A stretch of DNA of 16,486 bases from a virus (IMGVR_UViG_2740892258_000006); one strand, 5' to 3'. Positions 1,693 through 16,486 are shown, numbered from the stretch's first letter. Numbers and translations are program-made. The notes: generated from the letters alone by a model not told the origin.

Positions 1693-1711
1693 ACTTCGTT
1701 TCTCCTCTTAA

Positions 1712-2157
1712 TCAGGCAGCTGCACCCGCCGTTTTCTCGTACTTACTGATAGTGATCTCGACCTTCCCTTCCGGGATAACCGGTCCCCACTCCACCAGCA
1801 TTCTTTTCACCTGACTGTCGTCTTCCCACACACCCGCGTGGGTCAGGGCGTCAAACAGCGCCTTGTTATAGTTGTCCAGATCGCGGATCCGGTTATCCGG
1901 AGGAAACAACACGATCTCCACTGAAGCAGGTGCCGACGTTGGTTTCGGTTATCCGGAGGAAACAACACGATCTCCACTGAAGCAGGTGCCGACGTTGGTT
2001 TTGGCAGACGACGTAACTGCTCAACTATTGCTGCACACGCCGCGCTCTGGAATTTGCGCCCCGCCGCGCTTATCAGGCTCTTACCAGCAAACGCCCCTTT
2101 GTTGGGGTGTCGCCAGTACGTGTTCACGCTGGGCGGAAACGGCAGAATCAGCTTCAT
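1712..2157 (-). pseudogene. rusA: Holliday-junction resolvase RusA, frame broken by a 56-bp tandem duplication
   Basis: ORFs 1843..2157 (MKLILPFPPSVNTYWRH...) and 1712..1921 (...DNRIRDLDNYNKALFDALTHAGVWEDDSQV...) join into about 129 aa RusA-like protein when one duplicated copy is removed; ATGA stop/start overlap with upstream gene. Confidence 0.7.
1890..2001. repeat. Perfect tandem duplication, 2 x 56 bp (1890-1945 = 1946-2001)
   Basis: Identical copies read directly from sequence; inside rusA. Confidence 0.95.
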
Positions 2158-2480
2158 ACTTTCAGGCCCCTCTCATGTAACCAGTGGGCTGCACGCAGCC
2201 TGGCGTTTTCCTTACCGGCAAGCAGTGAGCGGATAATCCCGACCGCCTCGCTGTCGTCGTCCTTCACCGCGGTATGAAGAGTGATACCCCGGGCCACGCC
2301 ACGCTTTATCGTGATGACGCCTTTTTTCTCCAGTGCTCGAAGATGCTCCACCGCTGCATTCACTGAACGGTATCCCAGCATGGTTGCCACCTCCTGATTG
2401 GTTGGCGGGAAGCCACGTTCTTTCTGATAAGAAATCAGCATATCCAGCACCTGCTGCTGGCATTGAGTTAACGTCGTCAT
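2154..2480 (-). CDS. LexA N-terminal DNA-binding-domain protein (winged helix), phage regulator
   Basis: 108 aa; MTTLTQCQQQVLDMLISYQKERGFPPTNQEVATMLGYRSVNAAVEHLRALEKKGVI parallels LexA N-terminus; ATGA overlaps with neighbours on both sides. Confidence 0.65.
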   Translation of the reverse strand: MTTLTQCQQQVLDMLISYQKERGFPPTNQEVATMLGYRSVNAAVEHLRALEKKGVITIKRGVARGITLHTAVKDDDSEAVGIIRSLLAGKENARLRAAHWLHERGLKV

Positions 2481-3130
2481 GCCGCCATCTCCCTGAGCAG
2501 TTTTTCCGCCTGCTGGCGAACCTGCGCCAGAAACGCCTCACCACATGCCTCAAGTTCATCGCGCCCGATGTAGCTGATTGCCGGTCCCTTCCAGGTCTTG
2601 TCAAAAACAGCAATAGCACCAGCGAAGAAAGCTCCTGTCGGCACCTGCTTCTCGTCTTTCGGGATAAACCAGACAGGCAGTTCAAAACCAATACGCCCGC
2701 GAATAAAAGCAATATGATCTGCATCTTCCGGCCACCACACTTCGCTGGTGGCAGCTTTGATCAGGAAAACATAGCGCCCGCCTTTATCACGCATGGCACT
2801 GGCATGCTTCATGATGTAACGCATGCCGGTGATGTATTGCCCCTCATGCTGACTGGCGCGGCTGTATGGGGGATTACCAAAGGCAGCACCTTTAAGCTCC
2901 GCAAGACGTTCTGACCAGTCATGCGCCAGCGCATTGTCTTCCGCCGTGTAATACGCGGCACATTTGGCGTTACCACCGTCGGTGAACAGATCCAGAACAA
3001 ACGGGCCAAACAGGGTGTTAATTCCCCAGAAAATGTTGTCCGGCGTGCGCCACTGATCGCCCACTTCCTTCAGTTCATGGGCTGGTTTGTTCCGCAGCTC
3101 CACCAGCGCCTGGCAATATTTATTACTCAT
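2477..3130 (-). CDS. Phage DNA N6-adenine methyltransferase (Dam-like, orphan)
   Basis: NPPY motif (AFGNPPYSRA); start taken at ATG 3130 (MSNKYCQ...) where TAATG overlaps upstream stop; ORF track extends to 3163. Confidence 0.7.
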   Translation of the reverse strand: MSNKYCQALVELRNKPAHELKEVGDQWRTPDNIFWGINTLFGPFVLDLFTDGGNAKCAAYYTAEDNALAHDWSERLAELKGAAFGNPPYSRASQHEGQYITGMRYIMKHASAMRDKGGRYVFLIKAATSEVWWPEDADHIAFIRGRIGFELPVWFIPKDEKQVPTGAFFAGAIAVFDKTWKGPAISYIGRDELEACGEAFLAQVRQQAEKLLREMAA

Positions 3131-3624
3131 TAAGCCCCCACGTAATTCCCTGACAGATACCACTCTTCACCCGATGCAGCGCGCTTGCTGCTTTTCCGTA
3201 AGCACCGCTCACGACGCGCCAGAAAATTGTTTCGTTCTGGCTGGGAGTGGCTTTCACGGAATGCCGCCATCCACACGGTTGCAGCACGACGGTATAAACC
3301 CCTGGACTCCAGTTCTTCAGCCTGGCGGGTCAGGCACAAAATCACCCGTGGATCGTTAGTGCCGACATAGAAATTGCGCACAGGTCTGGTTTCTCGAACT
3401 GGTTGTGGTTCCGGTTCCTGCGCTCTCTCAGTCAGGCGCGGGAAATGTCTGCGTGTATCTCCTTCACAACGGTGAGCCACACGCCCACTCTGACGTAACT
3501 TGCTTGCTGACTGCAGAACGCGCTGTCGTGAGTAACCTGCAAAAGCATCCGCAATGTCACCGGAAGTACACCCCGGATGGGCTTCAATGAATTTCTGAAC
3601 GTCATTTAACAGACTCATGATCAC
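3130..3624 (-). CDS. Phage regulatory protein, C-terminal half PerC/Pch-like
   Basis: LESRGLYRRAATVWMAAF resembles the PerC-family GLWRRAA..W motif; N-terminal half looks winged-helix-like; GTG 3624 or ATG 3618 start overlapping upstream TGA. Confidence 0.5.
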   Translation of the reverse strand: MIMSLLNDVQKFIEAHPGCTSGDIADAFAGYSRQRVLQSASKLRQSGRVAHRCEGDTRRHFPRLTERAQEPEPQPVRETRPVRNFYVGTNDPRVILCLTRQAEELESRGLYRRAATVWMAAFRESHSQPERNNFLARRERCLRKSSKRAASGEEWYLSGNYVGA

Positions 3625-4154
3625 CCCCTGAATCCTGCCGGGATCTGGCTGTAGTCCACGTTGTCGTAACTGGCTTTGAAGTACGGGTCCTCGCGTTTTT
3701 CGGTGTACGTACTTACGGACGGCGATAAGCGCAGGGAAAGCTCATCCCATTTTTCCCGCAGCTTCGACGGGCTGAGCACGTTACGGCACCAGAACGGATC
3801 GCGGCTGACGCGGCTGTACATCTCGCAGATTTGTTTGTGAGTACGACCATCCTGCACACACATCAGGCGAATTTCGTTTGCCCAGGCTGTCCAGTTCGGT
3901 TCTTTGGGACGAACCACCTCGCCGTCACATTCGGCAGCCTGCTCGTACAGGGCGATGATTTTTTTCCAGAGCCACTGTGCGCAGGTCAAATCATCCTGCG
4001 TTCCCCACTGGCGCTTTTTAGGGCTGAATACAACAGCATCAGGATGGCGAGTTAAAAACTCCTGTTCAGCCGTCTGCGTGTCCGGTTGCGAAGCGTCCGG
4101 ACGAGAAGTTTTTTTCAGTTGCGAGCGACGGTAGTGTGTTGTTAAACTGTTCAT
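3621..4154 (-). CDS. Hypothetical phage early protein (177 aa), function not assigned
   Basis: Intact ORF, translationally coupled (ATGA) to upstream CII-like gene; Trp/Cys-rich C-terminal region. Confidence 0.55.
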   Translation of the reverse strand: MNSLTTHYRRSQLKKTSRPDASQPDTQTAEQEFLTRHPDAVVFSPKKRQWGTQDDLTCAQWLWKKIIALYEQAAECDGEVVRPKEPNWTAWANEIRLMCVQDGRTHKQICEMYSRVSRDPFWCRNVLSPSKLREKWDELSLRLSPSVSTYTEKREDPYFKASYDNVDYSQIPAGFRG

Positions 4155-4238
4155 GCGTTAGTTTCTCCACAGTCACGACACGCCACGGCGCCCGGAGCTG
4201 CACACTCGCGGGCGTCACTACTTTCTGAAACGCAAAAG

Positions 4239-4338
4239 ATTTTGTAGACCAGTGCTGCATGCTCCTGCAGCTTCGAAATTGAGAGGTAATTTTGTAGACC
4301 AGTGCTGCATGCTCCTGCAGCTTCGAAATTGAGAGGTA
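4239..4338. repeat. Perfect tandem duplication, 2 x 50 bp (4239-4288 = 4289-4338)
   Basis: Identical copies read directly from sequence. Confidence 0.95.
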
Positions 4339-4545
4339 CAGCTCATCGTTAATTGCTGTCTTCTCATGCGGTTCCACTACACCGTCTTCAATTGCTGAAC
4401 GAATCTGTTTTGAATAACTGCCGATCTGTTCAATGACCTCCAGCAGGCGTTGGTTGATATCGGCGTTGTCCACATCCTCGACGTCAGGAAGAGACACAAA
4501 GACGCCATTTGCAGACTGCGCCACAGCATCAGCAATGAAGTGAGT

Positions 4546-4567
4546 GCCACCAGCACGCCACCAGCAC
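4546..4567. repeat. Perfect tandem duplication, 2 x 11 bp (ccaccagcacg, phase ambiguous by one base)
   Basis: Read directly from sequence; both flanking ORFs encode RAGG across it. Confidence 0.85.
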
Positions 4568-4806
4568 GCTGTAAAACCATTGCCCATCCCAGCGGGAAAA
4601 TCTGATCGCCATCTGCACGAAGGCGGTTGAATAAAGCGTTTTCTGTTACATCGAGCCAGTCAGCCGCTTCAGCGTAACCACCCGGCAACGCCGCGATCGT
4701 TTTTCTGACAGCTTTCACGTACCACTCAGGCTGTTTTTCTATTTTCCAGTGATGCTTACCCACGATTAGCCTCATCGTTCTGTGGTTAAAAATTGAAAGT
4801 GTTCTG

Positions 4807-5007
4807 CTAATCTTTCGGATAGATATCCGGTCTTAAGTCAGATTTCGTAATTGCACCTGACGTGCATTGCTCAAGTTTTTTAGCCAGCACAAAACTGGCT
4901 TTTTTATAGCCATTGAAAACCAGCCGTAAGTAGCCAGGTGTTGAGCCAACTTTTCCGGCCAACTCGCCCTGCTGTTCTTTGGTTAAAGAGTCCCAATACG
5001 CTTTCAT
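4807..5007 (-). CDS. cro: Cro-like small HTH repressor
   Basis: 66-aa ORF (MKAYWDSLTKEQQGELAGKVGSTPGYLRLVFNGYKK...) divergent from cI-like gene; GGAGG upstream; start at 5007 within longer ORF 4807..5310. Confidence 0.6.
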   Translation of the reverse strand: MKAYWDSLTKEQQGELAGKVGSTPGYLRLVFNGYKKASFVLAKKLEQCTSGAITKSDLRPDIYPKD

Positions 5008-5013
5008 ACAATG

Positions 5014-5079
5014 TGTACCTCCGGTGTACATATTACATGATTGAAATGAACCTTCAAGATACTTGTACCTTAACGGTAC
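5014..5079. promoter_or_regulatory. Immunity-region operators and divergent promoters: O1 TGTACCtccggTGTACA (5014-5030), O2 TGTACCttaacGGTACA (5063-5079); PR-like -10 TAATAT (5030-5035) and -35 CTTGAA (5053-5058) on minus strand
   Basis: Two 17-bp dyad sites sharing TGTACC half-sites between divergent cro and cI starts; 17-bp spacer between -35 and -10. Confidence 0.5.
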
Positions 5080-5097
5080 AAGGGTTTTAATTTCGTT

Positions 5098-5772
5098 ATG
5101 AAAACAATCCATGACATCCGGCGGTCTAACGCCAGAAAACTGAGAGATGGTGTTGGCGGGAATTCTTCCTTTGCCACTATGATTGATCGCGAGCCAACCC
5201 AGACCAGCAGGTTTATGGGAGATGGTGCTACTAAAAATATCGGTGACAGCATGGCACGACACATCGAAAAATGTTTCGACCTGCCTGTCGGATGGCTCGA
5301 TCAAGAACACCAGACAACGAACATCACAAAAAAACCTGATGTTTCAATCACTAATAAACAAATCACATTAGTCCCTGTCATATCATGGGTACAGGCCGGA
5401 GCATGGAAAGAAGTTGGATATTCTGAGGTTGATTTGAGCACAGCAGAAACGTATCCCTGCCCTGTACCCTGTGGGGAAATGACTTATATCTTGCGGGTGA
5501 TAGGTGATTCAATGATTGATGAGTACCGCCCGGGAGACATGATTTTTGTCGATCCTGAAGTACCTGCCTGCCACGGTGACGACGTTATTGCATTGATGCA
5601 CGATACAGGTGAAACCACCTTCAAAAGGTTGATAGAAGATGGGACACAGCGTTATCTCAAAGCGTTAAACCCAAACTGGCCTGAGCCTTACATTAAGATC
5701 AACGGTAATTGCTCTATAATTGGTACTGTGATTTTCTCAGGAAAACCAAGAAGATACAAAATCAAAGCCTAA
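5098..5772 (+). CDS. cI: CI-like prophage repressor (HTH N-terminus + S24 LexA-type peptidase C-terminus)
   Basis: C-terminal GDSM Ser motif and downstream Lys (TFKRL) of S24 autopeptidases; divergent from cro. Confidence 0.8.
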   Translation: MKTIHDIRRSNARKLRDGVGGNSSFATMIDREPTQTSRFMGDGATKNIGDSMARHIEKCFDLPVGWLDQEHQTTNITKKPDVSITNKQITLVPVISWVQAGAWKEVGYSEVDLSTAETYPCPVPCGEMTYILRVIGDSMIDEYRPGDMIFVDPEVPACHGDDVIALMHDTGETTFKRLIEDGTQRYLKALNPNWPEPYIKINGNCSIIGTVIFSGKPRRYKIKA

Positions 5773-5784
5773 TCAATGTTTATG

Positions 5785-5807
5785 AACCTGCTTCGGCAGG
5801 TTTTTTT
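5785..5807 (+). terminator. Rho-independent terminator after cI (aacctgc-ttcg-gcaggtt + T7)
   Basis: 7-bp GC-containing stem, 4-nt loop, T-run. Confidence 0.7.
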
Positions 5808-5924
5808 ATACTTGACAATGTACCTTTGAGATACATAATGTACCCAAGAGAAACAACAAACAGGCAGGACGCCCACGAAGTAGCCGCCTGGGGCATATGA
5901 AGTCCAGGATGATTCGTTAGCAAC

Positions 5925-5947
5925 AAAAAAGCGCCCTATAGGACGCT
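5925..5947 (-). terminator. Rho-independent terminator for the LprI-like gene (agcgucc-uaua-gggcgcu + U6 on minus strand)
   Basis: Hairpin with one G-U pair followed by T6, 28 nt after the stop. Confidence 0.55.
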
Positions 5948-5974
5948 TCGCTCTTTAACAATCTGGATGACTTA

Positions 5975-6487
5975 TTACTCAGATTTGAACTTTGGTTCTG
6001 GCAAAAGAGGAGGAGTTGAGTCCTCGAATCGTAGCCAGTGCTCCCAGATATCGTGGGATTGTAATTCCAGAAGACCAATTTGACGTGATGCAACTGCAGT
6101 GCCAGCTATAGTTCCTCCTGCATAATCAACCTGGACGGACTTTGACGCTTTCTCAATTAATTCTGTCCAAGCTTCACTTTCCGCGTTAAAAGAAGCAGTT
6201 AATTCCTGCAGACGCTGTGGATCATCCTTGTTGTCTTGTTTCAAACGATTCAGGGCGGCCACCGAATACTTATTCTTAACCCAACTAACCTGAGCTAACT
6301 GAACTCTCTGACAAGCGTCCATATCAGTAGTTGTTTCCTGAGGCATATCAAAGCAGGAAATAAAAAAAGTCTCAACACCATCATTTAGACTACTGCTCGG
6401 CTGGTTCAAAGCATCAGAAGCATTGGATGCTATCGGTATTATCAGTGCTACCGACAGAATCAAACGTTTAACATAAATCGCTCCCAT
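5975..6487 (-). CDS. Secreted/periplasmic protein with signal peptide, LprI-like (DUF1311) fold suspected; moron
   Basis: N-terminal MGAIYVKRLILSVALIIPIASNA signal-like sequence; Cys...Cys and Trp/Tyr spacing reminiscent of DUF1311; antisense to surrounding operon; own terminator. Confidence 0.5.
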   Translation of the reverse strand: MGAIYVKRLILSVALIIPIASNASDALNQPSSSLNDGVETFFISCFDMPQETTTDMDACQRVQLAQVSWVKNKYSVAALNRLKQDNKDDPQRLQELTASFNAESEAWTELIEKASKSVQVDYAGGTIAGTAVASRQIGLLELQSHDIWEHWLRFEDSTPPLLPEPKFKSE

Positions 6488-6968
6488 TTAATTATCCCCT
6501 CTAAGAACAGAGTCATCCAGATTAGCCGAATCCTTGTTGTTGGGGAATAACCAGGCCCACCTCGCCTGATGTGGCTAAAAGCAGGCACATAACAGCTAAG
6601 TATTTTCAACCAGAGAGAATCCTTAGCGTTGTGGTGAATGCGGCTCAGCGCACGCGGGTTAAGGTTGAGGCTGACAGTCGACCTTCTGTGGATACCCACC
6701 CGCCTGGTGTGCAACCTTCGCCAGGCACCGGGAGGCACCCGGCACCACAACTTTATGCTGTGTGTAGTCCTGGCGGTACCAGCATGCCCTTATTTCTGCT
6801 CAGGGTGTTAATGAAATTATCAGTAAGATTGGTGCCGACGCAGTGGCATTACCTGAAAATTTCCGCATTCATGATCTGGAAAAATTTAATTTAAATCGCT
6901 TCCGTTTCCGTGGTGCGCTTTCCACTGCCAGCATCGATGACTTTACCCGTTATTCTAAAGATCTTGCG

Positions 6969-7080
6969 GATGAAGGCACCCGCTGCTTTATCGATGCCGA
7001 TAATATGCGTGCCGTCAGTGTGCTGATGAAGGCACCCGCTGCTTTATCGATGCCGATAATATGCGTGCCGTCAGTGTGCT
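6969..7080. repeat. Perfect tandem duplication, 2 x 56 bp (6969-7024 = 7025-7080)
   Basis: Identical copies read directly from sequence. Confidence 0.95.
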
Positions 7081-7204
7081 TAACCTGGGTACTATTGATG
7101 AGCCTGGTCACGCAGATAACACCGCCACTCTCAAACTGAAAAAGACAGCACCGTTCTCTGCTCTGTTGTCTGTTAATGGCGAGCGTCATTCCCAGAAGTC
7201 ACTG

Positions 7205-7316
7205 GCAGAATGGATTGAAGACTGGGCCGACTACCTTGTGGGCTTTGATGCTAATGGTGAGCAGAATGGATTGAAGACTGGGCCGACTACCTTGTGGGCT
7301 TTGATGCTAATGGTGA
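7205..7316. repeat. Perfect tandem duplication, 2 x 56 bp (7205-7260 = 7261-7316)
   Basis: Identical copies read directly from sequence. Confidence 0.95.
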
Positions 7317-7980
7317 TGCCATTCAGGCAACAAAAGCGGCTGCGGCAGTCCGTAAAATCACGATTGAAGCAAACCAGACCGCTGATTTTGAAGACAATGA
7401 CTTCAGCGGCAAACGCTCCCTGATGGAGTCTGTCGAAGCGAAGACCAAAGATATTATGCCAGTGGCATTTGAATTTAAATGCGTTCCGTTTGAAGGCCTG
7501 AAAGAACGTCCGTTTAAATTACGCCTCAGCATTATCACTGGCGATCGTCCTGTACTGGTTCTGCGCATTATTCAGCTGGAAGCAGTGCAGGAAGAAATGG
7601 CTAACGAATTTCGTGATCTGCTTGTTGAGAAATTCAAGGACAGCAAAGTAGAAACCTTTATTGGTACTTTTACCGCCTGATTTCATTACTGCAAATGCCC
7701 CTGCGGGGGCATTTATGGAAACGTAATTGACTCAATAATCGCCGGATGGTGAGGGCTTTCTTTTACCAGAATTCAGCGCGGTGCAGCGCATATACGTGGA
7801 GAACAAAATGTCATTTATTAAAACTTTTTCCGGGAAGCATTTTTATTATGACAGGATAAATAAAGACGACATCGTTATTAACGATATCGCGGTTTCTCTT
7901 TCAAATATCTGTCGCTTTGCAGGACATCTTTCACATTTCTACAGCGTCGCCCAACATGCGGTGCTTTGCAGCCAACTGGT

Positions 7981-8092
7981 ACCGCAGGAATTTGCTTTTG
8001 AAGCGTTAATGCATGATGCAACAGAAGCGTATTGCCACCGCAGGAATTTGCTTTTGAAGCGTTAATGCATGATGCAACAGAAGCGTATTGCC
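7981..8092. repeat. Perfect tandem duplication, 2 x 56 bp (7981-8036 = 8037-8092)
   Basis: Identical copies read directly from sequence. Confidence 0.95.
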
Positions 8093-8222
8093 AGGACATC
8101 CCCGCGCCGCTGAAACGCCTTCTTCCTGACTATAAACGGATGGAAGAAAAAATAGACGCCGTAATCCGTGAGAAATACGGGTTACCCCCGGTTATGAGTA
8201 CGCCCGTGAAATATGCCGATCT

Positions 8223-8334
8223 CATCATGCTGGCAACCGAACGCCGCGATCTCGGGCTTGATGATGGCTCTTTCTGGCCATCATGCTGGCAACCGAACGC
8301 CGCGATCTCGGGCTTGATGATGGCTCTTTCTGGC
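8223..8334. repeat. Perfect tandem duplication, 2 x 56 bp (8223-8278 = 8279-8334)
   Basis: Identical copies read directly from sequence. Confidence 0.95.
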
Positions 8335-8552
8335 CCGTACTGGAAGGTATCCCGGCAACAGAGATGTTCAAAGTTATTCCACTGTCGCCAGGCCATACCT
8401 ATGGGATGTTTATGGAACGCTTTAAAGAGTTAACTGAGTCGTAAAAATCAGCACGTACGAATTCAAACTCTGCCATAAAAGAACATATAAGTAATTTATT
8501 AACATATAGATATAGGTTATATTACAAATTGAAAAATTATTGGAGAGCAACA

Positions 8553-9419
8553 ATGAATCAAAATCCATTCTCATTCTATGACTTTCTTGGATATTTAATA
8601 CCAGGTGGTTTTTTTATCCTATTAATGTATTTCTGTGGTTTGACATTCGATCTAGATATTGTTATTGACTTAAGTGAATTGCTCAGAGGTCAAAGTCAAA
8701 TCTTTGGCATTTTGAACTACGCTTCAATAGTTATTATATCTTATATAGCTGGACATTTTATTTCTATCACGTCAGCATTTTTTATCGAAAAATACATGAA
8801 TAAAGAATTAGGATATCCTTCCAAATATCTATTTAAAAAATTGATAGATACCTCAGAAAGCATTTGTAGCCCATCATGCGATGAGAGAAGCGCTGATAAA
8901 AAAACAAAAATAAAGAATCGCATAATCAAATGCGTATTATGTCCAATAATACTATGGGATTTTATAACACAAAAACTATGTTATTCTCAATCTCTACCAT
9001 TTCATTTAGCTAATACAACATGGTTAATGATCAAAGAAGGTTATGAGAAAAAGTTCATAACAAATCGCCAATTATTACAAGATAAAAACGGACTTGATGA
9101 TGATCTCTTCAGATTGGCATATCATTATGTTTATGAGTTTTCAAAACAACATCAAACAAAAATTCAAAACTATGTTGCATTATATGGTTTTTGCAGAAAC
9201 ATATGTTTAATCTTTATAATTTCATTTTGGGTATCAGTTCCAACCTTTATTTATCGATTATGTACTCATAGTGATTATCTTTATAGTTTACTTTCAATAA
9301 TGCTTAGCTTTTTCTTCGTCTATGTTTTCTATGTTGGTTTTGTTAAATTTTATAGAAGATATACTTTAGAAGTATTAATGGCATTTGCTGTACTTCAAAG
9401 TAACGACACTATTCGTTAA
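8553..9419 (+). CDS. AT-rich multi-pass membrane protein (4-5 predicted TM helices), moron of unknown function
   Basis: ATG 8553 with GGAGA 7 nt upstream; hydrophobic segments FLGYLIPGGFFILLMYF, IFGILNYASIVIISYIAGHFI, ICLIFIISFWVSVPTFIY, LLSIMLSFFFVYVFYVGFV; strongly AT-rich versus neighbours. Confidence 0.6.
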   Translation: MNQNPFSFYDFLGYLIPGGFFILLMYFCGLTFDLDIVIDLSELLRGQSQIFGILNYASIVIISYIAGHFISITSAFFIEKYMNKELGYPSKYLFKKLIDTSESICSPSCDERSADKKTKIKNRIIKCVLCPIILWDFITQKLCYSQSLPFHLANTTWLMIKEGYEKKFITNRQLLQDKNGLDDDLFRLAYHYVYEFSKQHQTKIQNYVALYGFCRNICLIFIISFWVSVPTFIYRLCTHSDYLYSLLSIMLSFFFVYVFYVGFVKFYRRYTLEVLMAFAVLQSNDTIR

Positions 9420-9460
9420 TAATGTTGCTCCCGTGTGCAGACGGGATAATGGAGAAACGT

Positions 9461-9667
9461 ATGCTGAACCTCGATTGTGTTCCTATCTCAACTTATTGCA
9501 AAGAAACTGGCGAAACTCCTGAAGCAATAAACAAACGTGTACAGCGCGGTGTTTGGCGTGAAGGTGTTCAGGTTTTAAAGGTTGAAGGCGTTAAGGAGAG
9601 GTGGATTGATCTTAGTGAGGTTGCAAAATGGGCCAGACAAAACTGCTCAAACTACCGCGCGGCGTAA
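9461..9667 (+). CDS. xis: Excisionase-like protein (Xis)
   Basis: Small basic protein directly upstream of and overlapping int; start at ATG 9461 (GGAG 6 nt upstream) within ORF 9422..9667. Confidence 0.6.
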   Translation: MLNLDCVPISTYCKETGETPEAINKRVQRGVWREGVQVLKVEGVKERWIDLSEVAKWARQNCSNYRAA

Positions 9668-10800
9668 CAATCAGGAAACACCACCAGGGAGAAACGATCA
9701 ATATAACTTTCACCTACAAAGGAGTTAGATGTCGTGAGCCGCTTTCCAATCTGGAAGTAACACCAAAGAACATTAAATACGCCGAGCGTACACTCGGCGA
9801 AATCCATAATAAGATCGAAAGGGGAACATTCATTTATGCAGAATATTTTCCCCGTTCTGCTCGTTTGAAAATTTTTGGTAATGCTGCTGCAAGCAAAACG
9901 GTAAAGATGTACCTGGACGAATATCTTGAAATCTGCGAAACAAGAAAACTTTCACCCTCTACGATTGGTGGCTATAAAAAATGCCGTAGTGCGTTAGCCT
10001 CACTTCACATTTGCCCTGCAAGTGAATTAACACCAGCAACCCTGAAAGCGTGGATTCAAAGCCAGAAAACAACCTTAAAAACCATTCGCAACCAGTTATC
10101 TTTCCTACGGTCAGCACTTGATGAAGCCGTGACCGATGGGGTACTTCAAATTAACCCCGTATCGTTAGTAACAGCTTCGCGCTACCAAAGTGATAAGTCA
10201 GAAGCAGAAAGCAGCTATGTGGTTGATCCGCTATCACCAGCAGAAGTTGATGCATTACTAGCAGCAGCCGGAAACAAACAATGGGAAAATCTGTTCCGGT
10301 TCGCCATACATACAGGCCTGCGTAGTTCTGAATTATGTGCCCTACGATGGCATGATATCGACTTTGTTGGAAAAACAGCCCATGTTCAGAGCGCAAGTGT
10401 TGTCGGAGTTATCAAAGGAACAAAGACAAAAGCCGGTACCCGTAAAGTTGAACTGACTGAAGAAGCAATGTTGGCGTTGATAAACCAGAAGCCATTTACA
10501 TTCATGAAGGATGCTACTGTCTTTGAAGATCCAAAGACCAATAAACCCTGGGCAAGTGCTGATGCAATTAGGAAAAAAGCATGGGTGCCAACATTGCGAA
10601 AAGCAGGTATTCGTTACAGAAACCCATATCAAACCAGGCATACATTCGCCACCAGCCATATCAGCCGGGGAGCAAACCTGTTTTGGCTTGCGGCTCAAAT
10701 GGGCCATAAAGGGCCTGAAATGTTATTCAGGCACTATGGACAATACTTGAAAGAGTATGATGGGAGGGCAAGTATCAAGGATAAAAAGGCTTTATTTTAA
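9628..10800 (+). CDS. int: Tyrosine site-specific integrase (lambda-type with N-terminal arm-binding domain)
   Basis: 390 aa; catalytic-domain signatures HTGLRSSELCALRW (Arg), RHTFATSH (His-x-x-Arg), GHKGPEMLFRHYGQY (His...Tyr). Confidence 0.9.
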   Translation: MGQTKLLKLPRGVTIRKHHQGETINITFTYKGVRCREPLSNLEVTPKNIKYAERTLGEIHNKIERGTFIYAEYFPRSARLKIFGNAAASKTVKMYLDEYLEICETRKLSPSTIGGYKKCRSALASLHICPASELTPATLKAWIQSQKTTLKTIRNQLSFLRSALDEAVTDGVLQINPVSLVTASRYQSDKSEAESSYVVDPLSPAEVDALLAAAGNKQWENLFRFAIHTGLRSSELCALRWHDIDFVGKTAHVQSASVVGVIKGTKTKAGTRKVELTEEAMLALINQKPFTFMKDATVFEDPKTNKPWASADAIRKKAWVPTLRKAGIRYRNPYQTRHTFATSHISRGANLFWLAAQMGHKGPEMLFRHYGQYLKEYDGRASIKDKKALF

Positions 10801-11409
10801 GTCATTATGCCAATCGTCTACTGTTTGAAACCAAATTTTTAACCTTTGCATAAAGGTACGATCCTTTTTGGGAGGGTGGTACCTTTGAAAAGAAGTATGT
10901 AACGCTTCGATAACTCCCATACAAGCATCAATTACTTCTTGTGCTTTAACCGGGCGATCGGCATCTGAAAGCTTGTGAGCGACCTCACAATCCAGAGTTG
11001 CTTTCTCTAGTACAGATGAGAACACCTCGTCAGGTATATACAGTCCTCTGCTTTCCAAAATGCAAATCAGTTTGGAAACTTGTTGAGCTTTAGCCAAGAT
11101 AGTTAACAAGTATGAAACAGAAGCCTTTGTTCTATCCTTTTGCAACCTTAACAATCGATGCTTTGATGCTCTAATTTTAGGTTGAGTTGTCTGACTGAGC
11201 CAATAGTTAGAAGAAATATCAGAAATTTCAATAACTAACTTTGAAATAGCATCAATAATTGATTTCGATTCAGAACGTGTCGCCAGTTTTACAGAATTAT
11301 TGTACGCAACTCGCCATCCAATGAAAACTAAGCAGACGCTAACTACTGTGATACACCACGAATACTGTCCTATTTGTGCTACTAATGACATTGGTTCCGT
11401 ACTGATCAA
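10792..11409 (-). CDS. Cargo operon gene C: membrane-anchored protein (one N-terminal TM helix, helical soluble domain), unknown function
   Basis: TTG start at 11409 with AAGAGG overlapping upstream stop (alternative ATG 11391); TM segment YSWCITVVSVCLVFIGWRVAY; 3' end overlaps int by 9 nt. Confidence 0.6.
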   Translation of the reverse strand: MISTEPMSLVAQIGQYSWCITVVSVCLVFIGWRVAYNNSVKLATRSESKSIIDAISKLVIEISDISSNYWLSQTTQPKIRASKHRLLRLQKDRTKASVSYLLTILAKAQQVSKLICILESRGLYIPDEVFSSVLEKATLDCEVAHKLSDADRPVKAQEVIDACMGVIEALHTSFQRYHPPKKDRTFMQRLKIWFQTVDDWHNDLK

Positions 11410-11419
11410 CTATCGCCTC

Positions 11420-11746
11420 TTATACTCTTTCTGGTTGTGCTAAATCAATAAATTTATCAATCTGTTCTTTGTAGAACGGAACATCACTTTTTATAATCAA
11501 ACGTGCTTTAACGTTGGCTTTAGGTATCCCTTCCTTACGGATGAGACCTCCAAACGCCTCTTCTAAGAAAGAGGAACCAACACCCAGTGCTATACCGCGA
11601 AAATCAACCACAATCTCCTGTTCAGTACCCTTCAGCGCAGGCACCAAAAACTCTCTACGAAATCTTTCCGCACTGTGTGGGCTATCCGTTGTGTAACGTC
11701 CGAAAGGTGTTCTGGAGAACTCCTTCGCTATGACGATATTTCTCAT
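11420..11746 (-). CDS. Cargo operon gene B: small STAS-like protein (DUF4325-like, tentative)
   Basis: 108 aa; AGGAG 8 nt upstream of ATG 11746; motif EIVVDFRGIALGVGSSFLEEAFGGLI resembles STAS-like DUF4325 as I recall it; 4-nt gap to gene A. Confidence 0.6.
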   Translation of the reverse strand: MRNIVIAKEFSRTPFGRYTTDSPHSAERFRREFLVPALKGTEQEIVVDFRGIALGVGSSFLEEAFGGLIRKEGIPKANVKARLIIKSDVPFYKEQIDKFIDLAQPERV

Positions 11747-11750
11747 AAAA

Positions 11751-12662
11751 TCATCTCCTGGGAACCAGCGACCATTGTAGTAAAGTACCCGGTATGTACT
11801 CAGCTAGCTTCTCACATCGAGGACTACTGTCATTAGAATTATAGCTATAACGAGCCCTTCCTGTTAGTATCAGAAGTGTCTCATTATCCTCACAACCTGC
11901 CCCAATAGGTCTCTTGATATCTTCAGAGCCATTTCCCCGTCCGGAACCAACAAAGCGGGATTCCCCTACTAACATAGCTCTTTCCACAGAAGATACTTCG
12001 TTTTGAATGCTATGACCATCACCATTAGGCACGAAACTTCTATAAATCCCCAATCCAAGGTCACAAACGATAAAAACGACTTTATTTTCATCACGATTGA
12101 ACCAAGCGCACTGCCACCATCGTTTACCTTTGAGAAGCTGAATATCTGACTCGAACCCCTCATCTTCATACGCATGATGAGAAACATTGAGCAAAGCTTC
12201 ACTAATCGCTGTCAGCAGTAAGCCTAACTGTTCATTATTAAGCAGAGCACTTTTCTGCAGCATGAGTACTGTTTCAACAATATGCTCGTAAGGTTCGACA
12301 GCTGACTGAAAGTATCGTTCCTCCCTCGTAAGTGCATTCAGTTTCTCTTCTGTGCCAGCAAGCAAAGCACGAGCAAGTCCAGTACCAACGATCCATCTAT
12401 GCCCAGATGGGTTATCATCCTTTTTAGGCCATTTAAAACGTATAAAATTAGGGTCCCGGGTTAAAAATTGAGCTCTATTTACTATGGCAAAGAACAGTAC
12501 CGATGCCGCAGCTGAGGCAAATTTTACCTTGGACAAATCAACTATAACTCGACCTTTATTTTTTACTCCAATCGATTCAATCGAGTTGATGAAGTTCAAT
12601 GTCCCAGCCCTAGAATCATCTGAGTAAATGCAAAATTTGCTTGGGGGTACCAGTATGGTCAT
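11751..12662 (-). CDS. Cargo operon gene A: GHKL (histidine-kinase-like) ATPase with unassigned N-terminal domain
   Basis: 303 aa; Bergerat-fold motifs in the C-terminal half: N-box EALLNVSHHA, G1 CDLGLGI, G2 GSGRGNG. Confidence 0.65.
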   Translation of the reverse strand: MTILVPPSKFCIYSDDSRAGTLNFINSIESIGVKNKGRVIVDLSKVKFASAAASVLFFAIVNRAQFLTRDPNFIRFKWPKKDDNPSGHRWIVGTGLARALLAGTEEKLNALTREERYFQSAVEPYEHIVETVLMLQKSALLNNEQLGLLLTAISEALLNVSHHAYEDEGFESDIQLLKGKRWWQCAWFNRDENKVVFIVCDLGLGIYRSFVPNGDGHSIQNEVSSVERAMLVGESRFVGSGRGNGSEDIKRPIGAGCEDNETLLILTGRARYSYNSNDSSPRCEKLAEYIPGTLLQWSLVPRR

Positions 12663-12813
12663 AGCGATGTCATTCTTATACGATGGATTTATAGATTATC
12701 TACTATTCATAGTTGGTTATGAAGACTGGGATATAACAGTAAAAGATACGTGTAAGATCCGCAAGATAGTTAATGTCGAAAAAATCATTAATTACATCAA
12801 GTTAGTGATATTT

Positions 12814-12851
12814 GGACTCGGGTTCAACTCCCGCCAGCCAATCATGATTGG
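12814..12851 (+). other. Candidate att remnant: 25-nt match to the 3' end of tmRNA/ssrA (GGACtCGGGTTCAACTCCCGCCAGC) followed by perfect palindrome CCAATCATGATTGG (12838-12851)
   Basis: Recalled E. coli ssrA 3' end is ...GGACGCGGGTTCAACTCCCGCCAGCTCCACCA; one mismatch here and divergence after CAGC. Confidence 0.55.
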
Positions 12852-12970
12852 ACGGTGTAAGGACTACACCAACAAAAACAGGAAGTTATAAGTCTCAGCA
12901 GGACACCGACCAGACGGTGAGGAGACAAAAAAGGATACGCAACGGAGTCGCGACTCCCTATGACATTAAA

Positions 12971-12993
12971 GCCCGCTGATGCGGGCTTTTTTA
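12971..12993 (+). terminator. Rho-independent terminator (gcccgc-tgat-gcgggc + T6)
   Basis: Perfect 6-bp GC stem, 4-nt loop, T-run; lies about 130 bp downstream of the ssrA-like fragment. Confidence 0.65.
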
Positions 12994-13299
12994 TTGGTCC
13001 TGACCCGCCCTGAATAGAATTCATCCAATTACAGTCCAGACATATACAGTATCCCTCAGCTCAGTATCAGCTTCTCGACAAATGGTCACTGTTATTTACC
13101 CGTTGCCAGAAAGAGAATAATTTGCCCCCATAGCCAGCCTTCCCGGAATCTGTATATTCATTAATATTGTTATCGATTCCATCAAGTAACATAGGTTGGA
13201 TGCGATTGATCTTACTCACATTAGTCGACACGGAACTCAGTAAGTTGAACTCTGAAAAAGCAGTTTAAATAGCATTTAAACAAATGCCACCAGTTCGAA

Positions 13300-14500
<1,201 letters not shown>

Positions 14501-14519
14501 GCGCAAAGGAATTGAGCGG

Positions 14520-15788
14520 ATGTATGATTTTTTGATTATTGGCGGCGGCATCATCGGCATGTCGACCGCCATGCAACTAATTGATGTTTATCCGGATGCC
14601 CGCATAGCGTTGCTGGAAAAAGAGCCCGGCCCGGCCTGTCACCAGACGGGCCACAACAGTGGCGTAATCCATGCCGGGGTCTATTACACGCCCGGCAGCC
14701 TGAAGGCGCAGTTTTGCCTGGCAGGAAACCGCGCCACCAAAGCCTTTTGCGATCAAAACGGTATTCGCTACGACAACTGCGGCAAGATGCTGGTCGCCAC
14801 GTCTGAACTCGAAATGGAACGGATGCGCGCCTTATGGGAACGCACGGCGGCGAACGGAATCGATCGCGAGTGGTTAAACGCCGAAGAGCTGCGCGAGCGC
14901 GAACCAAATATCACCGGGCTGGGCGGTATTTTTGTGCCGTCCAGCGGCATTGTCAGCTACCGCGAAGTGACGGCGGCAATGGCAAAAATTTTTCAGGCCA
15001 GAGGCGGTGAGATTATCTATAACGCCGAAGTCAGCGCCCTCAGTGAGCATAAAAACGGCGTGGTGATATGTACCCGTCAGGGCGGTGAATATGAAGCATC
15101 GACGCTGATTAGCTGTTCCGGGCTGATGGCTGACCGGCTGGTGAAAATGCTCGGCCTCGAACCGGGCTTTATTATCTGCCCGTTCCGCGGCGAGTATTTC
15201 CGCCTTGCGCCGGAGCATAACCAGATTGTTAACCACCTGATTTACCCCATTCCCGACCCGGCAATGCCGTTTTTGGGCGTGCATCTCACCCGCATGATCG
15301 ACGGCAGTGTGACCGTCGGGCCAAACGCGGTGCTGGCTTTCAAACGCGAAGGCTATCGTAAGCGCGACTTCTCATTTAGCGACACGCTGGAAATTTTGGG
15401 CTCGTCGGGGATTCGCCGGGTGCTGCAAAACCATCTACGCTCAGGACTGGGCGAGATGAAAAACTCGCTGTGCAAAAGCGGCTATCTGCGGCTGGTGCAA
15501 AAGTATTGTCCCCGGCTTTCGTTAAGCGATCTCCAGCCCTGGCCCGCCGGTGTGCGGGCGCAGGCGGTATCGCCGGACGGCAAGCTGATTGACGATTTTC
15601 TGTTTGTCACCACCCCGCGCACGATCCACACCTGTAATGCGCCCTCCCCGGCAGCGACATCAGCAATTCCTATTGGTGCGCATATTGTCAGCAAGGTACA
15701 AACGCTGTTGGCAAGCCAGAGTAACCCCGGACGCACGCTGCGAGCGGCACGTAGTGTGGATGCCTTACACGCCGCATTTAATCAATAA
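14520..15788 (+). CDS. lhgO: L-2-hydroxyglutarate dehydrogenase/oxidase LhgO (FAD-dependent)
   Basis: 422 aa from ATG 14520 (AAGGA upstream); FAD-binding LIIGGGIIG motif; ORF track extends upstream to 14454 overlapping csiD. Confidence 0.9.
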   Translation: MYDFLIIGGGIIGMSTAMQLIDVYPDARIALLEKEPGPACHQTGHNSGVIHAGVYYTPGSLKAQFCLAGNRATKAFCDQNGIRYDNCGKMLVATSELEMERMRALWERTAANGIDREWLNAEELREREPNITGLGGIFVPSSGIVSYREVTAAMAKIFQARGGEIIYNAEVSALSEHKNGVVICTRQGGEYEASTLISCSGLMADRLVKMLGLEPGFIICPFRGEYFRLAPEHNQIVNHLIYPIPDPAMPFLGVHLTRMIDGSVTVGPNAVLAFKREGYRKRDFSFSDTLEILGSSGIRRVLQNHLRSGLGEMKNSLCKSGYLRLVQKYCPRLSLSDLQPWPAGVRAQAVSPDGKLIDDFLFVTTPRTIHTCNAPSPAATSAIPIGAHIVSKVQTLLASQSNPGRTLRAARSVDALHAAFNQ

Positions 15789-15810
15789 CCTTTGAAAACA
15801 GGATGTAGCG

Positions 15811-16486
15811 ATGAAACTTAACGACAGTAACTTATTCCGCCAGCAGGCGTTGATTAACGGGGAATGGCTGGACGCCAACAATGGCGAGGTCATCGACGTC
15901 ACCAATCCGGCGAACGGCGACAAGCTGGGTAGCGTGCCGAAAATGGGCGCTGATGAAACCCGCGCCGCTATCGACGCCGCCAACCGCGCCCTGCCCGTCT
16001 GGCGTGCGCTCACTGCCAAAGAACGCGCCAACATTCTGCGCAACTGGTTCAATTTAATGATGGAGCATCAGGACGATTTAGCGCGCCTGATGACCCTCGA
16101 ACAGGGCAAACCACTGGCTGAAGCGAAAGGCGAAATCAGCTACGCCGCCTCATTTATTGAGTGGTTTGCAGAAGAAGGCAAACGTATTTATGGCGACACC
16201 ATTCCCGGTCATCAGGCCGATAAACGCCTGATTGTTATCAAGCAGCCGATTGGCGTCACCGCGGCTATCACGCCGTGGAACTTCCCGGCGGCGATGATTA
16301 CCCGTAAAGCCGGTCCGGCGCTGGCGGCAGGCTGCACGATGGTGCTGAAGCCCGCCAGTCAGACGCCGTTCTCTGCGCTGGCGCTGGCAGAACTGGCGAT
16401 TCGCGCGGGCGTTCCGGCTGGCGTGTTTAACGTAGTCACCGGTTCGGCGGGCGCGGTCGGTAACGAACTGACCAGCAACCCGCTGG
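15811..16486 (+). CDS. gabD: Succinate-semialdehyde dehydrogenase GabD, 5' partial (continues beyond window)
   Basis: ATG 15811 with AGGA upstream; MKLNDSNLFRQQALINGEWLDANNGEVIDVTNPANG...; aldehyde dehydrogenase N-terminal region; no stop before window end. Confidence 0.9.
   Translation, partial: MKLNDSNLFRQQALINGEWLDANNGEVIDVTNPANGDKLGSVPKMGADETRAAIDAANRALPVWRALTAKERANILRNWFNLMMEHQDDLARLMTLEQGKPLAEAKGEISYAASFIEWFAEEGKRIYGDTIPGHQADKRLIVIKQPIGVTAAITPWNFPAAMITRKAGPALAAGCTMVLKPASQTPFSALALAELAIRAGVPAGVFNVVTGSAGAVGNELTSNPL

What the first reader, a model, noticed from the sequence alone, without database searches (positions are those of the whole stretch)
10792..12662. Uncharacterised three-gene cargo operon (GHKL ATPase + STAS-like + membrane protein) between integrase and att
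Three tightly coupled minus-strand genes (4-nt and 10-nt gaps, SD sequences overlapping upstream stops) occupy the int-to-att slot where prophages usually carry defence or exclusion cargo. Gene A (303 aa) has clear Bergerat/GHKL motifs in its C-terminal half (N-box EALLNVSHHA, G1 CDLGLGI, G2 GSGRGNG) and an unassigned N-terminal region whose GRVIVDLSKVKFASAAASVLFFA stretch may itself be STAS-like. Gene B (108 aa) resembles STAS-like DUF4325 (VVDFRGIALGVGSSFLEEAFGG). Gene C (205 aa) has one N-terminal TM helix and a helical soluble domain. The pairing is reminiscent of RsbW/RsbV-type partner switching, with a membrane component as possible effector or sensor. The region is AT-rich relative to flanking host genes. 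I cannot match it to any named anti-phage system, so it is a candidate undescribed defence or signalling module.
Basis: partly seen in the sequence, partly recalled or inferred. Interest (0 to 1): 0.85.

Follow-up and report, generated by a model that had tools for sequence, protein, structure and literature searches.

The report
Kinase–STAS–membrane protein prophage cassette

Summary
Three tightly coupled minus-strand genes lie between the prophage integrase and attR, a duplicated ssrA 3' end at 12811-12992.

- **B (108 aa)** is a DUF4325 STAS-like protein.
- **C (205 aa)** has one N-out transmembrane helix and a cytoplasmic four-helix bundle.

The A-B-C order is kept in all 55 related loci with room to check, down to 30% identity. 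The cassette sits in several different prophage cargo slots.

It is not wholly undescribed.
- A is homologous to VapK (hhalign 96.7%).
- B belongs to the same Pfam family as VapS, and B Ser58 aligns with the VapS phospho-acceptor Ser48.
- VapKSC (EMBO J 2026) is a kinase-controlled toxin-antitoxin defence system. Here its PIN toxin is replaced by membrane protein C.
- The identical operon was predicted defensive and tested in the DefensePredictor study (working name VPUS). It gave no protection against 24 coliphages.

Best reading: an infection or DNA-damage signal activates A, A phosphorylates B, and B then releases or activates C at the membrane. Only the homologies are shown; the rest is inferred. 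I rate it a new variant of a known kind.

The parts
11751..12662 (-). Gene A (303 aa): STAS-like N-terminal domain plus SpoIIAB/RsbW/VapK-type GHKL serine kinase
12297..12662 (-). A residues 1-122: STAS-like domain. The invariant A51-A52-A53 sit where B has G57-S58-S59
12168..12200 (-). A N-box, EALLNVSHHAY (E155-Y165)
   Evidence: Read from the sequence. E155, A156, N159, H163, A164 and Y165 are invariant in 58 homologues. Aligns with the RsbW N-box.
12048..12062 (-). A G1 box, DLGLG (D201-G205)
   Evidence: Invariant D201, G203 and G205.
11913..11939 (-). A G2 / ATP-lid end, RGNGSEDIK (R242-K250)
   Evidence: Invariant R242, G243, G245 and D248. The lid region has low pLDDT, as is usual for ATP lids.
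11420..11746 (-). Gene B (108 aa): DUF4325 STAS-like protein, a VapS homologue and the predicted kinase substrate
   Evidence: Pfam DUF4325 at 51.9 bits. VapS is also DUF4325, at 62.7 bits. hhalign of B against VapS: 65%, E 6e-5. B is the most conserved component, with mean identity 59%.
11570..11575 (-). B Ser58-Ser59 (tcc tct), the predicted phospho-acceptor. S58 aligns with VapS Ser48
   Evidence: G57, S58 and S59 are invariant in a 7-sequence alignment. VapS S48 was validated experimentally in PMC13373217.
10792..11409 (-). Gene C (205 aa from TTG, or 199 aa from the ATG at 11391): single-pass membrane protein with a cytoplasmic four-helix bundle; the putative effector
11305..11373 (-). 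C transmembrane helix (about residues 13-35), followed by the conserved juxtamembrane motif KLATRSESKS
   Evidence: Kyte-Doolittle maximum 1.81. K/R count 0.46 on the N-flank against 3.54 on the C-flank over 54 orthologues, implying N-out and C-in. Invariant W32, Y36, N38, R45, E47, K49 and D53.
12695..12723 (-). Promoter-like site TTCATA-17-GATAAT, 33 nt upstream of the A start codon
   Evidence: Consensus scan. The number of such sites in the region is no higher than in shuffled sequence, so this is a candidate only.
12811..12992 (+). attR: duplicated 3' end of ssrA (tmRNA) with its downstream sequence and terminator; the right boundary of the prophage
   Evidence: Direct repeats in UTI89, 5510-5697 against 48633-48814 of L018, 93-95% identical. 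tmRNA remnant at 12819-12833. Terminator-like hairpin at 12968-12989.
9628..10800 (+). Prophage tyrosine integrase, convergent with C (the stop codons overlap by 9 nt); the left boundary of the cargo slot
   Evidence: Pfam Arm-DNA-bind_2 and Phage_integrase. Coordinates.

Best explanation
The trio is a prophage-borne, kinase-gated module of the VapKSC type in which the PIN toxin has been replaced by a membrane protein.

**Shown by homology and structure**
- A is a STAS-GHKL serine kinase of the CapK/VapK family.
- B is its small DUF4325 (VapS-family) STAS substrate.
- B's invariant Ser58 sits in the position of the VapS phospho-acceptor.

**Inferred by analogy with VapKSC**
- In uninfected cells, unphosphorylated B binds the cytoplasmic helical domain of C and keeps it inactive. 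C is a single-pass inner-membrane protein.
- An infection or DNA-damage cue activates A. For CapK/VapK that cue is single-stranded DNA.
- A phosphorylates B on Ser58, and B lets go of C.
- C then acts at the membrane, by oligomerising, permeabilising or depolarising it. This arrests or kills the cell before the incoming phage completes its cycle.

The cassette moves as a unit between prophage cargo slots, as a moron that benefits the lysogen.
For: **Anatomy**
- Three genes are coupled by 4-nt and 10-nt gaps.
- The N, G1 and G2 boxes are invariant.

**Homology to VapKSC**
- The broadened A-family profile against VapK gives hhalign 96.7%, E 4.3e-10, over 239 columns spanning both domains. The two proteins are 303 and 302 aa.
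- VapS and B both pass the Pfam DUF4325 threshold.
- B Ser58 aligns with VapS Ser48, whose S48A and S48E mutants alter function (PMC13373217).
- The gene order kinase-STAS-third gene is the same as in vapKSC.

**Obligate trio**
- The A-B-C order holds in all 55 loci with room, including 38 IMG/VR contigs and a 30%-identity variant.
- C homologues in viral contigs are found only on contigs that carry A-B, or at contig ends where A-B would be cut off.
- Distant metagenomic cassettes keep all three genes.

**Mobile, defence-like context**
- The cassette lies between int and attR here.
- 13 of 32 non-redundant cassettes abut integrases of several subtypes. Others sit between lysis and terminase genes, or next to tail genes.
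- A sister prophage with a 95.7%-identical integrase at the same site carries, in this slot, an AAA ATPase and a PD-Lambda-5_B-family methylase (E 5.8e-124).
- The same UTI89 prophage carries DS-24, PD-T4-3 and a type IV restriction enzyme at its other end.
- A distant cassette neighbours a HipA-like + DUF3037 pair and HicAB.

**Independent prediction**
- DefensePredictor gave the operon a log-odds of 5.75.

**C topology**
- The helical bundle is placed in the cytoplasm, where B could reach it.
Against: - The identical operon, with 200 bp of native upstream sequence on pSC101 in MG1655, gave no protection against 24 coliphages (defensive = FALSE).
- B is the slowest-evolving component and C the fastest (59% against 35% mean identity). 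That is the reverse of the usual toxin/antitoxin pattern.
- One metagenomic variant has a 47-bp frameshifting deletion in B with C intact. A simple 'B is an essential antitoxin' model does not predict this, unless loss of translational coupling silences C or the contig is in error.
- The ssDNA trigger is known only for CapK (biochemistry) and VapK (an AF3 model plus one mutant). In my alignment VapK Phe54 falls at A Lys47, next to Phe48, and position 48 is only partly conserved as an aromatic or hydrophobic residue.
- No GenBank phage record encodes A.
Confidence: 0.5

Rival explanations
1. C is not an effector but a membrane anchor or sensor. In this reading the module is a signalling device: C reports an envelope event such as phage DNA entry or membrane stress to the A-B kinase/substrate pair. 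The output is phospho-B acting on some target outside the cassette, either a host or prophage factor.
For: - C is the most variable component, as expected for a part that contacts a diversifying signal.
- B is the most conserved, as expected if it contacts a conserved target.
- The lack of a plaque phenotype fits a non-killing role.
Against: - The bundle is predicted to be cytoplasmic, not periplasmic.
- No candidate external target travels with the cassette, although the cassette moves between unrelated prophages and chromosomal sites as a self-contained trio.
- In the homologous VapKSC system the third gene is the effector.
Confidence: 0.2
2. The cassette is a selfish toxin-antitoxin / addiction module or a neutral moron with no anti-phage role. 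It would stabilise the prophage or respond to general DNA damage, but it would not restrict phages.
For: - The defence test against 24 phages was negative.
- The VapKSC authors themselves note that such systems may be general stress-response modules, with phage protection as a by-product.
- 52 of the 94 DefensePredictor candidates failed to validate.
Against: - The cassette repeatedly occupies slots where sister prophages carry defence-type genes.
- It is co-resident with DS-24, PD-T4-3 and a type IV restriction enzyme.
- The homologous VapKSC system protects against only one tested phage, Bas42. Bas42 was not in the DefensePredictor panel, so the negative result has low power.
Confidence: 0.15
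3. C is a superinfection-exclusion protein. It would sit in the inner membrane and block DNA injection by incoming phages, with A-B tuning its activity. The host cell would not be killed.
For: - C is a small inner-membrane protein encoded in a prophage cargo slot, as classical Sie proteins are (established knowledge of P22 SieA and T4 Imm, recalled, not tested here).
- The fast evolution of C would fit direct contact with phage injection proteins.
Against: - C has no similarity to any known exclusion protein.
- Known Sie proteins act alone and need no kinase and STAS partner.
- There was no protection against lambda or the other 23 phages.
Confidence: 0.1
4. It is a classical RsbW/RsbV (SpoIIAB/SpoIIAA) partner-switching module that controls an alternative sigma factor.
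For: The kinase domain of A is structurally closest to SpoIIAB and RsbW. B is STAS-like.
Against: - No sigma factor and no PP2C phosphatase lie in or next to the cassette in any of the loci examined.
- A carries its own STAS domain, as CapK and VapK do and as RsbW does not.
- The NCBIfam RsbW equivalog scores 11.7 bits against a cut-off of 145.
Confidence: 0.03

Closest known systems
VapKSC kinase-controlled toxin-antitoxin defence system (Chambers et al., EMBO J 2026, PMC13373217)
   Same: - It is a three-gene operon in the same order: STAS+GHKL kinase (VapK 302 aa, A 303 aa), a small DUF4325 STAS protein (VapS 116 aa, B 108 aa), then a third gene.
- A is homologous to VapK over both domains (hhalign 96.7%).
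- B and VapS belong to the same Pfam family.
- B Ser58 aligns with the VapS phospho-acceptor Ser48.
- Both systems are found in mobile or defence-type neighbourhoods.
   Different: - The third gene is a PIN (VapC) RNase in VapKSC. Here it is a 205-aa single-pass membrane protein with a four-helix bundle and no PIN domain.
- VapKSC gives about 2 logs of protection against Bas42. This trio gave none against 24 other phages.
- A carries an invariant RWWQ motif absent from VapK.
- No biochemistry exists for the trio.
CapK-CapS regulators of immune operons (same paper)
   Same: A STAS+GHKL kinase of the anti-sigma-factor-kinase type phosphorylates a conserved serine on helix 2 of a STAS-domain partner encoded immediately downstream. 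The pair is associated with anti-phage loci.
   Different: - CapK has an extra N-terminal HTH. In A the STAS fold starts at residue 1.
- CapS carries a C-terminal wHTH and is a DNA-binding repressor. B is 108 aa with no DNA-binding domain.
- CapKS sits upstream of a multi-gene immune operon. Here only C follows, and then a convergent integrase.
SpoIIAB-SpoIIAA / RsbW-RsbV partner-switching modules
   Different: There is no sigma factor and no PP2C phosphatase. The kinase is fused to its own STAS domain. Sequence similarity is marginal (PDB profile search E 0.29; NCBIfam RsbW 11.7 bits against a cut-off of 145).
DefensePredictor candidate 'VPUS' (DeWeirdt, Mahoney and Laub, Science 2026, PMC13092281, Table S6)
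   Same: It is the identical operon: WP_000060412.1, WP_001244589.1 and WP_000154254.1, the RefSeq proteins of this locus in UTI89.
   Different: It is not a named system. It was predicted defensive (log-odds 5.75, category 'structural defense homolog'), was not validated, and so received no DS number.

Membership tests
VapKSC | A kinase with STAS and GHKL domains, homologous to VapK | tested here: met
VapKSC | A small STAS protein (VapS) with a conserved Ser/Thr phospho-acceptor at the start of helix 2 | tested here: met
   B and VapS both exceed the Pfam DUF4325 threshold (51.9 and 62.7 bits). hhalign 65%, E 6e-5, with B S58 opposite VapS S48. G57, S58 and S59 are invariant in the 7-sequence alignment, and the GSSFLEE motif is kept in three distant cassettes. 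Phosphorylation itself was not tested.
VapKSC | Tight operon in the order kinase - STAS - effector | tested here: met
   Gaps of 4 and 10 nt. The order is kept in all 55 loci with room.
VapKSC | The third gene encodes a VapC-like PIN nuclease toxin | tested here: not met
VapKSC | Protects against phage, dependent on the kinase, the phospho-serine and the toxin | tested here: inconclusive
   I cannot test this. The published test of the identical operon was negative for 24 phages. The panel lacked Bas42, the only phage VapKSC restricts.
VapKSC / CapK | [quoted passage not shown] | not testable with these tools
   This needs biochemistry or a protein-nucleic acid structure prediction. In my alignment VapK F54 falls at A K47, next to F48, a position only partly conserved as aromatic or hydrophobic.
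CapK-CapS | The kinase carries an N-terminal HTH before the STAS domain | tested here: not met
   In the model of A the STAS fold begins at residue 2 (strand 2-4, helix 15-34). No HTH family appears in Pfam.
CapK-CapS | The STAS partner carries a C-terminal wHTH and acts as a repressor of a downstream immune operon | tested here: not met
   B is 108 aa, DUF4325 covers residues 25-87, and there is no further domain. Only C follows, and then a convergent integrase.
RsbW-RsbV / SpoIIAB-SpoIIAA partner switch | A GHKL serine kinase of the anti-sigma type with a STAS substrate | tested here: met
RsbW-RsbV / SpoIIAB-SpoIIAA partner switch | A cognate sigma factor sequestered by the kinase, and a PP2C phosphatase that resets the substrate | tested here: not met
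   Neither is encoded in or beside the cassette in the window or in any related locus inspected.
Catalogued defence systems (PADLOC-DB v2.0.0) | Any component matches a system model | tested here: not met
   No hit for A, B or C at E <= 1. DefenseFinder models were not available to me. DefensePredictor's own DefenseFinder/HHblits screen placed the operon outside the known systems, in the category 'structural defense homolog'.

The most novel reading that the evidence does not exclude
The trio founds a distinct kinase-STAS-membrane-protein ('K-S-TM') family. In this reading a phospho-switch of the VapK/VapS type gates a previously unrecognised class of membrane effector. That effector is a single-pass protein with an N-out helix, a cytoplasmic four-helix bundle and a conserved juxtamembrane KLATRSESKS motif. 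It would abort infection by disrupting the inner membrane, and its specificity would be directed at phages absent from the tested panel, for example temperate lambdoid or P2-like phages competing for the same lysogen.
Probability: 0.3. Interest if true: 0.7.

Novelty: new variant of a known kind. Interest (0 to 1): 0.55.

Why it matters
If the model holds, the STAS-GHKL kinase / DUF4325 pair is a portable sensor-switch that bacteria and prophages plug onto unrelated effectors: a transcriptional repressor in CapKS, a PIN RNase in VapKSC, and a membrane protein here. That extends the idea of modular immune signalling to serine phosphorylation.

It would also assign a function to DUF4325 and to two PHROG families of unknown function. 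It would add a candidate membrane effector class.

The A family is large. A full-library profile search found 2384 clusters (at 50% identity) with E <= 1e-3 and 1241 with E <= 1e-10. The cassette is present in 126 of 5426 complete E. coli genomes, including UTI89 and other extraintestinal pathogenic (UPEC/APEC-type) strains such as IHE3034 and APEC O18.

The published negative phage test also makes the cassette a useful case for asking what such screens miss.

Tried and rejected
**Database searches with no hit**
- PADLOC v2 and NCBIfam scans of A, B and C found nothing, apart from a meaningless 11.7-bit RsbW hit.
- Profile searches of PDB sequences gave only RsbW at E 0.29 for A, and nothing credible for B or C. 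The VapS and CapS crystal structures were not picked up by sequence.
- Foldseek of C against BFVD gave one 159-aa unnamed protein, probably a C homologue, and nothing functional.
- The GenBank phage collection had no match by megablast or by tblastn with A.

**Literature searches**
- 'partner-switching' plus 'anti-phage' returned no papers.
- 'DUF4325' returned three irrelevant papers.
- The WP accessions returned no main-text hits. They were found only in a supplement.
- Brenes and Laub 2025 (prophage defence systems against temperate phages) could bear directly on this cassette but is not held.

**Alignments and other attempts**
I use it only to note that the register agrees.
- hhalign of the A N-domain against B was weak (6%).
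- A last word-indexed protein search with distant A relatives returned only 17 proteins because of the candidate cap.
- The promoter scan found a plausible -35/-10 upstream of A, but no more sites than in shuffled sequence.

**Considered and rejected**
- Regulation of the adjacent integrase: the cassette is found in slots with no integrase nearby.
Full report
**1. What is in the sequence**

The window matches E. coli UTI89 and other complete genomes, including IHE3034, NU14, S88 and APEC O18. The finding region is 100% identical to them, and 126 of 5426 complete E. coli genomes carry the whole trio.

Three minus-strand ORFs lie at the stated coordinates:
- A, 11751-12662, 303 aa
- B, 11420-11746, 108 aa
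- C, 10792-11409, 205 aa from a TTG. RefSeq uses the ATG at 11391, giving 199 aa.

The A stop is followed by 4 nt and the B start, with AGGAGA inside the end of A. The B stop is followed by 10 nt and the C start, with GAGG just upstream. The trio is 41.2% GC, against 55-57% for glaH and lhgO. The stop of C overlaps the stop of the convergent integrase by 9 nt.

**2. Where it sits**

In UTI89 a roughly 43-kb prophage lies between ssrA and glaH. It has a myovirus-type tail and a lambdoid early region.

The 3' end of ssrA and about 150 nt downstream of it, including the terminator, are duplicated at a position equal to window 12811-12992, at 93-95% identity. Rfam sees a tmRNA remnant at 12819-12833. 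That duplication is attR. The trio therefore lies inside the prophage, between int (9628-10800) and attR, 149 nt from the repeat.

The slot is variable.
- In JJ1886, a sister prophage with a 95.7%-identical integrase at the same site carries an AAA ATPase and a PD-Lambda-5_B-family methylase (E 5.8e-124) there.
- Strain AR_0374 has an IS element there.

The other end of the UTI89 prophage is outside the window. It encodes WP_000183405.1 (validated as DS-24 in the DefensePredictor study), a PD-T4-3 homologue (E 7e-137) and a DUF262 type IV restriction enzyme.

**3. What the proteins are**

*Gene A.* A scores below threshold on Pfam HATPase_c_2 (22.9 bits against a 27.4 cut-off). Its N, G1 and G2 boxes are invariant in 58 homologues.
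- So A is a STAS-like domain fused to an anti-sigma-type serine kinase.

*Gene B.* B is a bona fide DUF4325 member (51.9 bits), with the motif G57-S58-S59-F-L-E-E invariant in the 7-sequence alignment.

*Gene C.* C has no family.
- It has one hydrophobic helix at about residues 13-35.
- The flanking charges (0.46 K/R on the N side, 3.54 on the C side, over 54 orthologues) indicate an N-out, C-in topology.
- The AF2 model (pLDDT 79) shows the TM helix continuing into a four-helix bundle.
- The most conserved part is the juxtamembrane stretch GW.V.Y.N..KLATRSESKS..D.

**4. Is the trio a unit?**

A has 163 word-index homologue clusters. All those named are Gammaproteobacteria and all are annotated 'hypothetical'.

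In every related locus with enough sequence, 55 in all, HMMs for A, B and C hit consecutive co-oriented ORFs in the order A-B-C. These include 38 IMG/VR viral contigs and a variant in which A is only 30% identical.

A search that started from C found C only on contigs that also hold A-B, or at contig ends.

Over 34 non-redundant cassettes (561 pairs), mean identities are A 48%, B 59% and C 35%.

The cassette occupies at least three kinds of prophage slot:
- between integrase and att, with several unrelated integrase subtypes (13 of 32 downstream neighbours);
- between the lysis cassette and the terminase (Providencia);
- next to tail-tip genes (Yersinia).

It also occurs in non-prophage chromosomal sites, such as Rheinheimera next to NERD genes, and Photobacterium.

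A full-library profile search shows the A family is large: 2384 clusters at 50% identity with E <= 1e-3, 1241 with E <= 1e-10 and 103 with E <= 1e-30.
- Two distant metagenomic members still have DUF4325 and a C homologue downstream (E 1e-28 to 1e-31).
- A third has DUF4325 and an unrelated small N-terminally hydrophobic helical ORF.
- One of these cassettes lies beside a HipA-like + DUF3037 pair and HicAB.

**5. What is already known**

Two 2026 papers bear directly on the finding.

(a) *DefensePredictor (PMC13092281).* Table S6 lists the identical three proteins as working id VPUS:
- source: an E. coli strain of the study's collection (assembly GCF_003333565.1);
- maximum log-odds 5.75;
- category 'structural defense homolog';
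- defensive = FALSE, and no DS name.

The methods were as follows. The transcription unit, with 200 bp upstream and 100 bp downstream, was placed on promoterless pSC101 plasmid pCV1 in MG1655 (strain 'MG1655 pCV1-VPUS'). Spot-titre efficiency of plating was measured against 24 phages in LB at 37 C. VPUS was not in the randomly chosen subset that was retested in M9 at 30 C. In the supplementary text held, the only temperate phage I found in the panel is lambda, and Bas42 is absent.

(b) *Chambers et al. (PMC13373217).* This paper describes two related systems.
- CapK (HTH-STAS-GHKL) phosphorylates CapS (STAS-wHTH) in response to ssDNA.
- The vapKSC operon encodes VapK (STAS-GHKL), VapS (STAS, an antitoxin phosphorylated on Ser48) and VapC (a PIN toxin). 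It gives about 2 logs of protection against Bas42 only.

I took the VapS and VapK sequences from their supplementary AF3 model and tested them.
- VapS is a DUF4325 member (62.7 bits).
- The B profile aligns to VapS at 65%, E 6e-5, with B Ser58 opposite VapS Ser48.
- A orthologues alone align to VapK at 58%, E 1e-4.
- A profile broadened with 20 distant family members aligns at 96.7%, E 4.3e-10, over 239 columns spanning both domains.

A and B are therefore homologues of VapK and VapS in the same gene order, and the third gene has been swapped.

**6. How it most likely works**

*Shown.* The domain identities, the homology to VapK and VapS, the position of the conserved serine, the obligate three-gene linkage, the cytoplasmic orientation of C's bundle, and the mobile, defence-rich context.

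*Inferred by analogy.*
- B binds C and holds it inactive.
- A is switched on by an infection or DNA-damage cue. ssDNA is the precedent.
- A phosphorylates B Ser58, and C is released to act on the inner membrane.
- The outcome is growth arrest or death that aborts infection.

*Points against.*
- The published phage test was negative.
- There is no evidence that C is toxic.
- B, not C, is the slowest-evolving component.
- Two natural variants are relevant but do not decide the matter. One is a metagenomic contig with a 47-bp frameshifting deletion in B and an intact C. The other is an E. coli strain with an IS3 element inserted between B and C, uncoupling C from the operon. Either could reflect selection against C expression, polarity, or error.

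I put 0.5 on the kinase-gated membrane-effector defence model. The rivals are C as sensor or anchor (0.2), an addiction or stress module with no antiphage role (0.15), superinfection exclusion (0.1) and a classical sigma-factor partner switch (0.03). My confidence is about 0.8 in the narrower claim that A phosphorylates B.

**7. Membership and novelty**

The trio meets three defining features of VapKSC: a kinase homologous to VapK, a DUF4325 substrate with the serine, and the gene order. It fails the fourth, a PIN toxin. It works like VapKSC but is not a member in the strict sense.

It is not CapKS, because A has no HTH, B has no wHTH and there is no downstream immune operon. It is not an RsbW/RsbV switch, because there is no sigma factor and no phosphatase.

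It has no PADLOC v2 model and no name that I could find in the searchable literature. I rate it a new variant of a known kind.

Interest is moderate to high (0.55). The effector swap to an uncharacterised membrane protein, the size of the family and the clean prophage-hotspot context are attractive. The regulatory principle, however, was published in 2026, and the only functional test so far is negative.

**8. Caveat on the window**

Left of position 8335 the window differs from UTI89 by seven exact 50-56-bp tandem duplications and four deletions that break several prophage ORFs. The finding lies wholly in the clean block 8279-16486, which has one mismatch in 8208 nt against UTI89, and is not affected.

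Noticed in passing
window 1560-8335: There are seven exact two-copy tandem duplications of 50-56 bp, at 1560, 1890, 4239, 6965, 7205, 7981 and 8223. There are also four deletions relative to UTI89, of 184, 144, 755 and 639 bp. They split prophage ORFs; yfdQ and yfdR appear as overlapping fragments with repeated peptide segments. The pattern looks like untrimmed overlaps from concatenated assembly pieces rather than biology.
   Followed up: partly
window 8529-9419 (+): A very AT-rich ORF (28.4% GC) of 296 aa sits between yfdR and xis/int. It belongs to phrog_12528 (unknown function) and has weak similarity to the type VI-B CRISPR accessory membrane protein Csx27 (PADLOC E 1.4e-5; NCBIfam 14.9 bits against a cut-off of 65). 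It is absent from the JJ1886 sister prophage, so this is a second variable cargo slot.
   Followed up: partly
L018 6124-11218 (UTI89 prophage attL end, outside the window): The other end of the same prophage carries three defence genes in a row. They are WP_000183405.1 (DefensePredictor DS-24, validated), a PD-T4-3 homologue (E 7e-137) and a DUF262 type IV methyl-directed restriction enzyme (PADLOC E = 0).
   Followed up: partly
L057 5924-8636 (E. coli JJ1886, same int-att slot): A sister prophage with a 95.7%-identical integrase at the same ssrA-glaH site carries an AAA ATPase (Septu/Gabija-like hits) and a PD-Lambda-5_B-family adenine methylase (E 5.8e-124) where this window has the trio. 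The slot behaves as a cargo-exchange hotspot.
   Followed up: partly
window 10792-10800: The stop codons of C (minus strand) and the integrase (plus strand) overlap by 9 nt. No terminator-like hairpin was found after C, so convergent transcription could couple expression of the two genes.
   Followed up: no
L063 (E. coli FDAARGOS_1303) and L060 1700-2600: Two natural disruptions of the cassette were seen. One is an IS3 element inserted between B and C in an E. coli genome. The other is a 47-bp frameshifting deletion inside B, with A and C intact, in a metagenomic contig otherwise identical to L059.
   Followed up: partly
window 5975-6487 (-): A 170-aa ORF with an N-terminal signal-peptide-like sequence lies next to the repressor region of the prophage. 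It belongs to phrog_7681 (unknown function, E 1.2e-120) and may be another moron.
   Followed up: no
proteins P0225, P0234, P0241, P0255, P0261 and others: A subset of distant A-family kinases (350-390 aa) carries a 40-70-residue lysine/arginine-rich N-terminal extension rather than the HTH of CapK. It could be a nucleic-acid-binding tail.
   Followed up: no
window 11420-11746 (B) against phrog_5816: B matches only positions 341-439 of a 441-position PHROG profile. This suggests that some phages encode a much longer protein ending in a DUF4325 domain, possibly a fusion with its partner.
   Followed up: no
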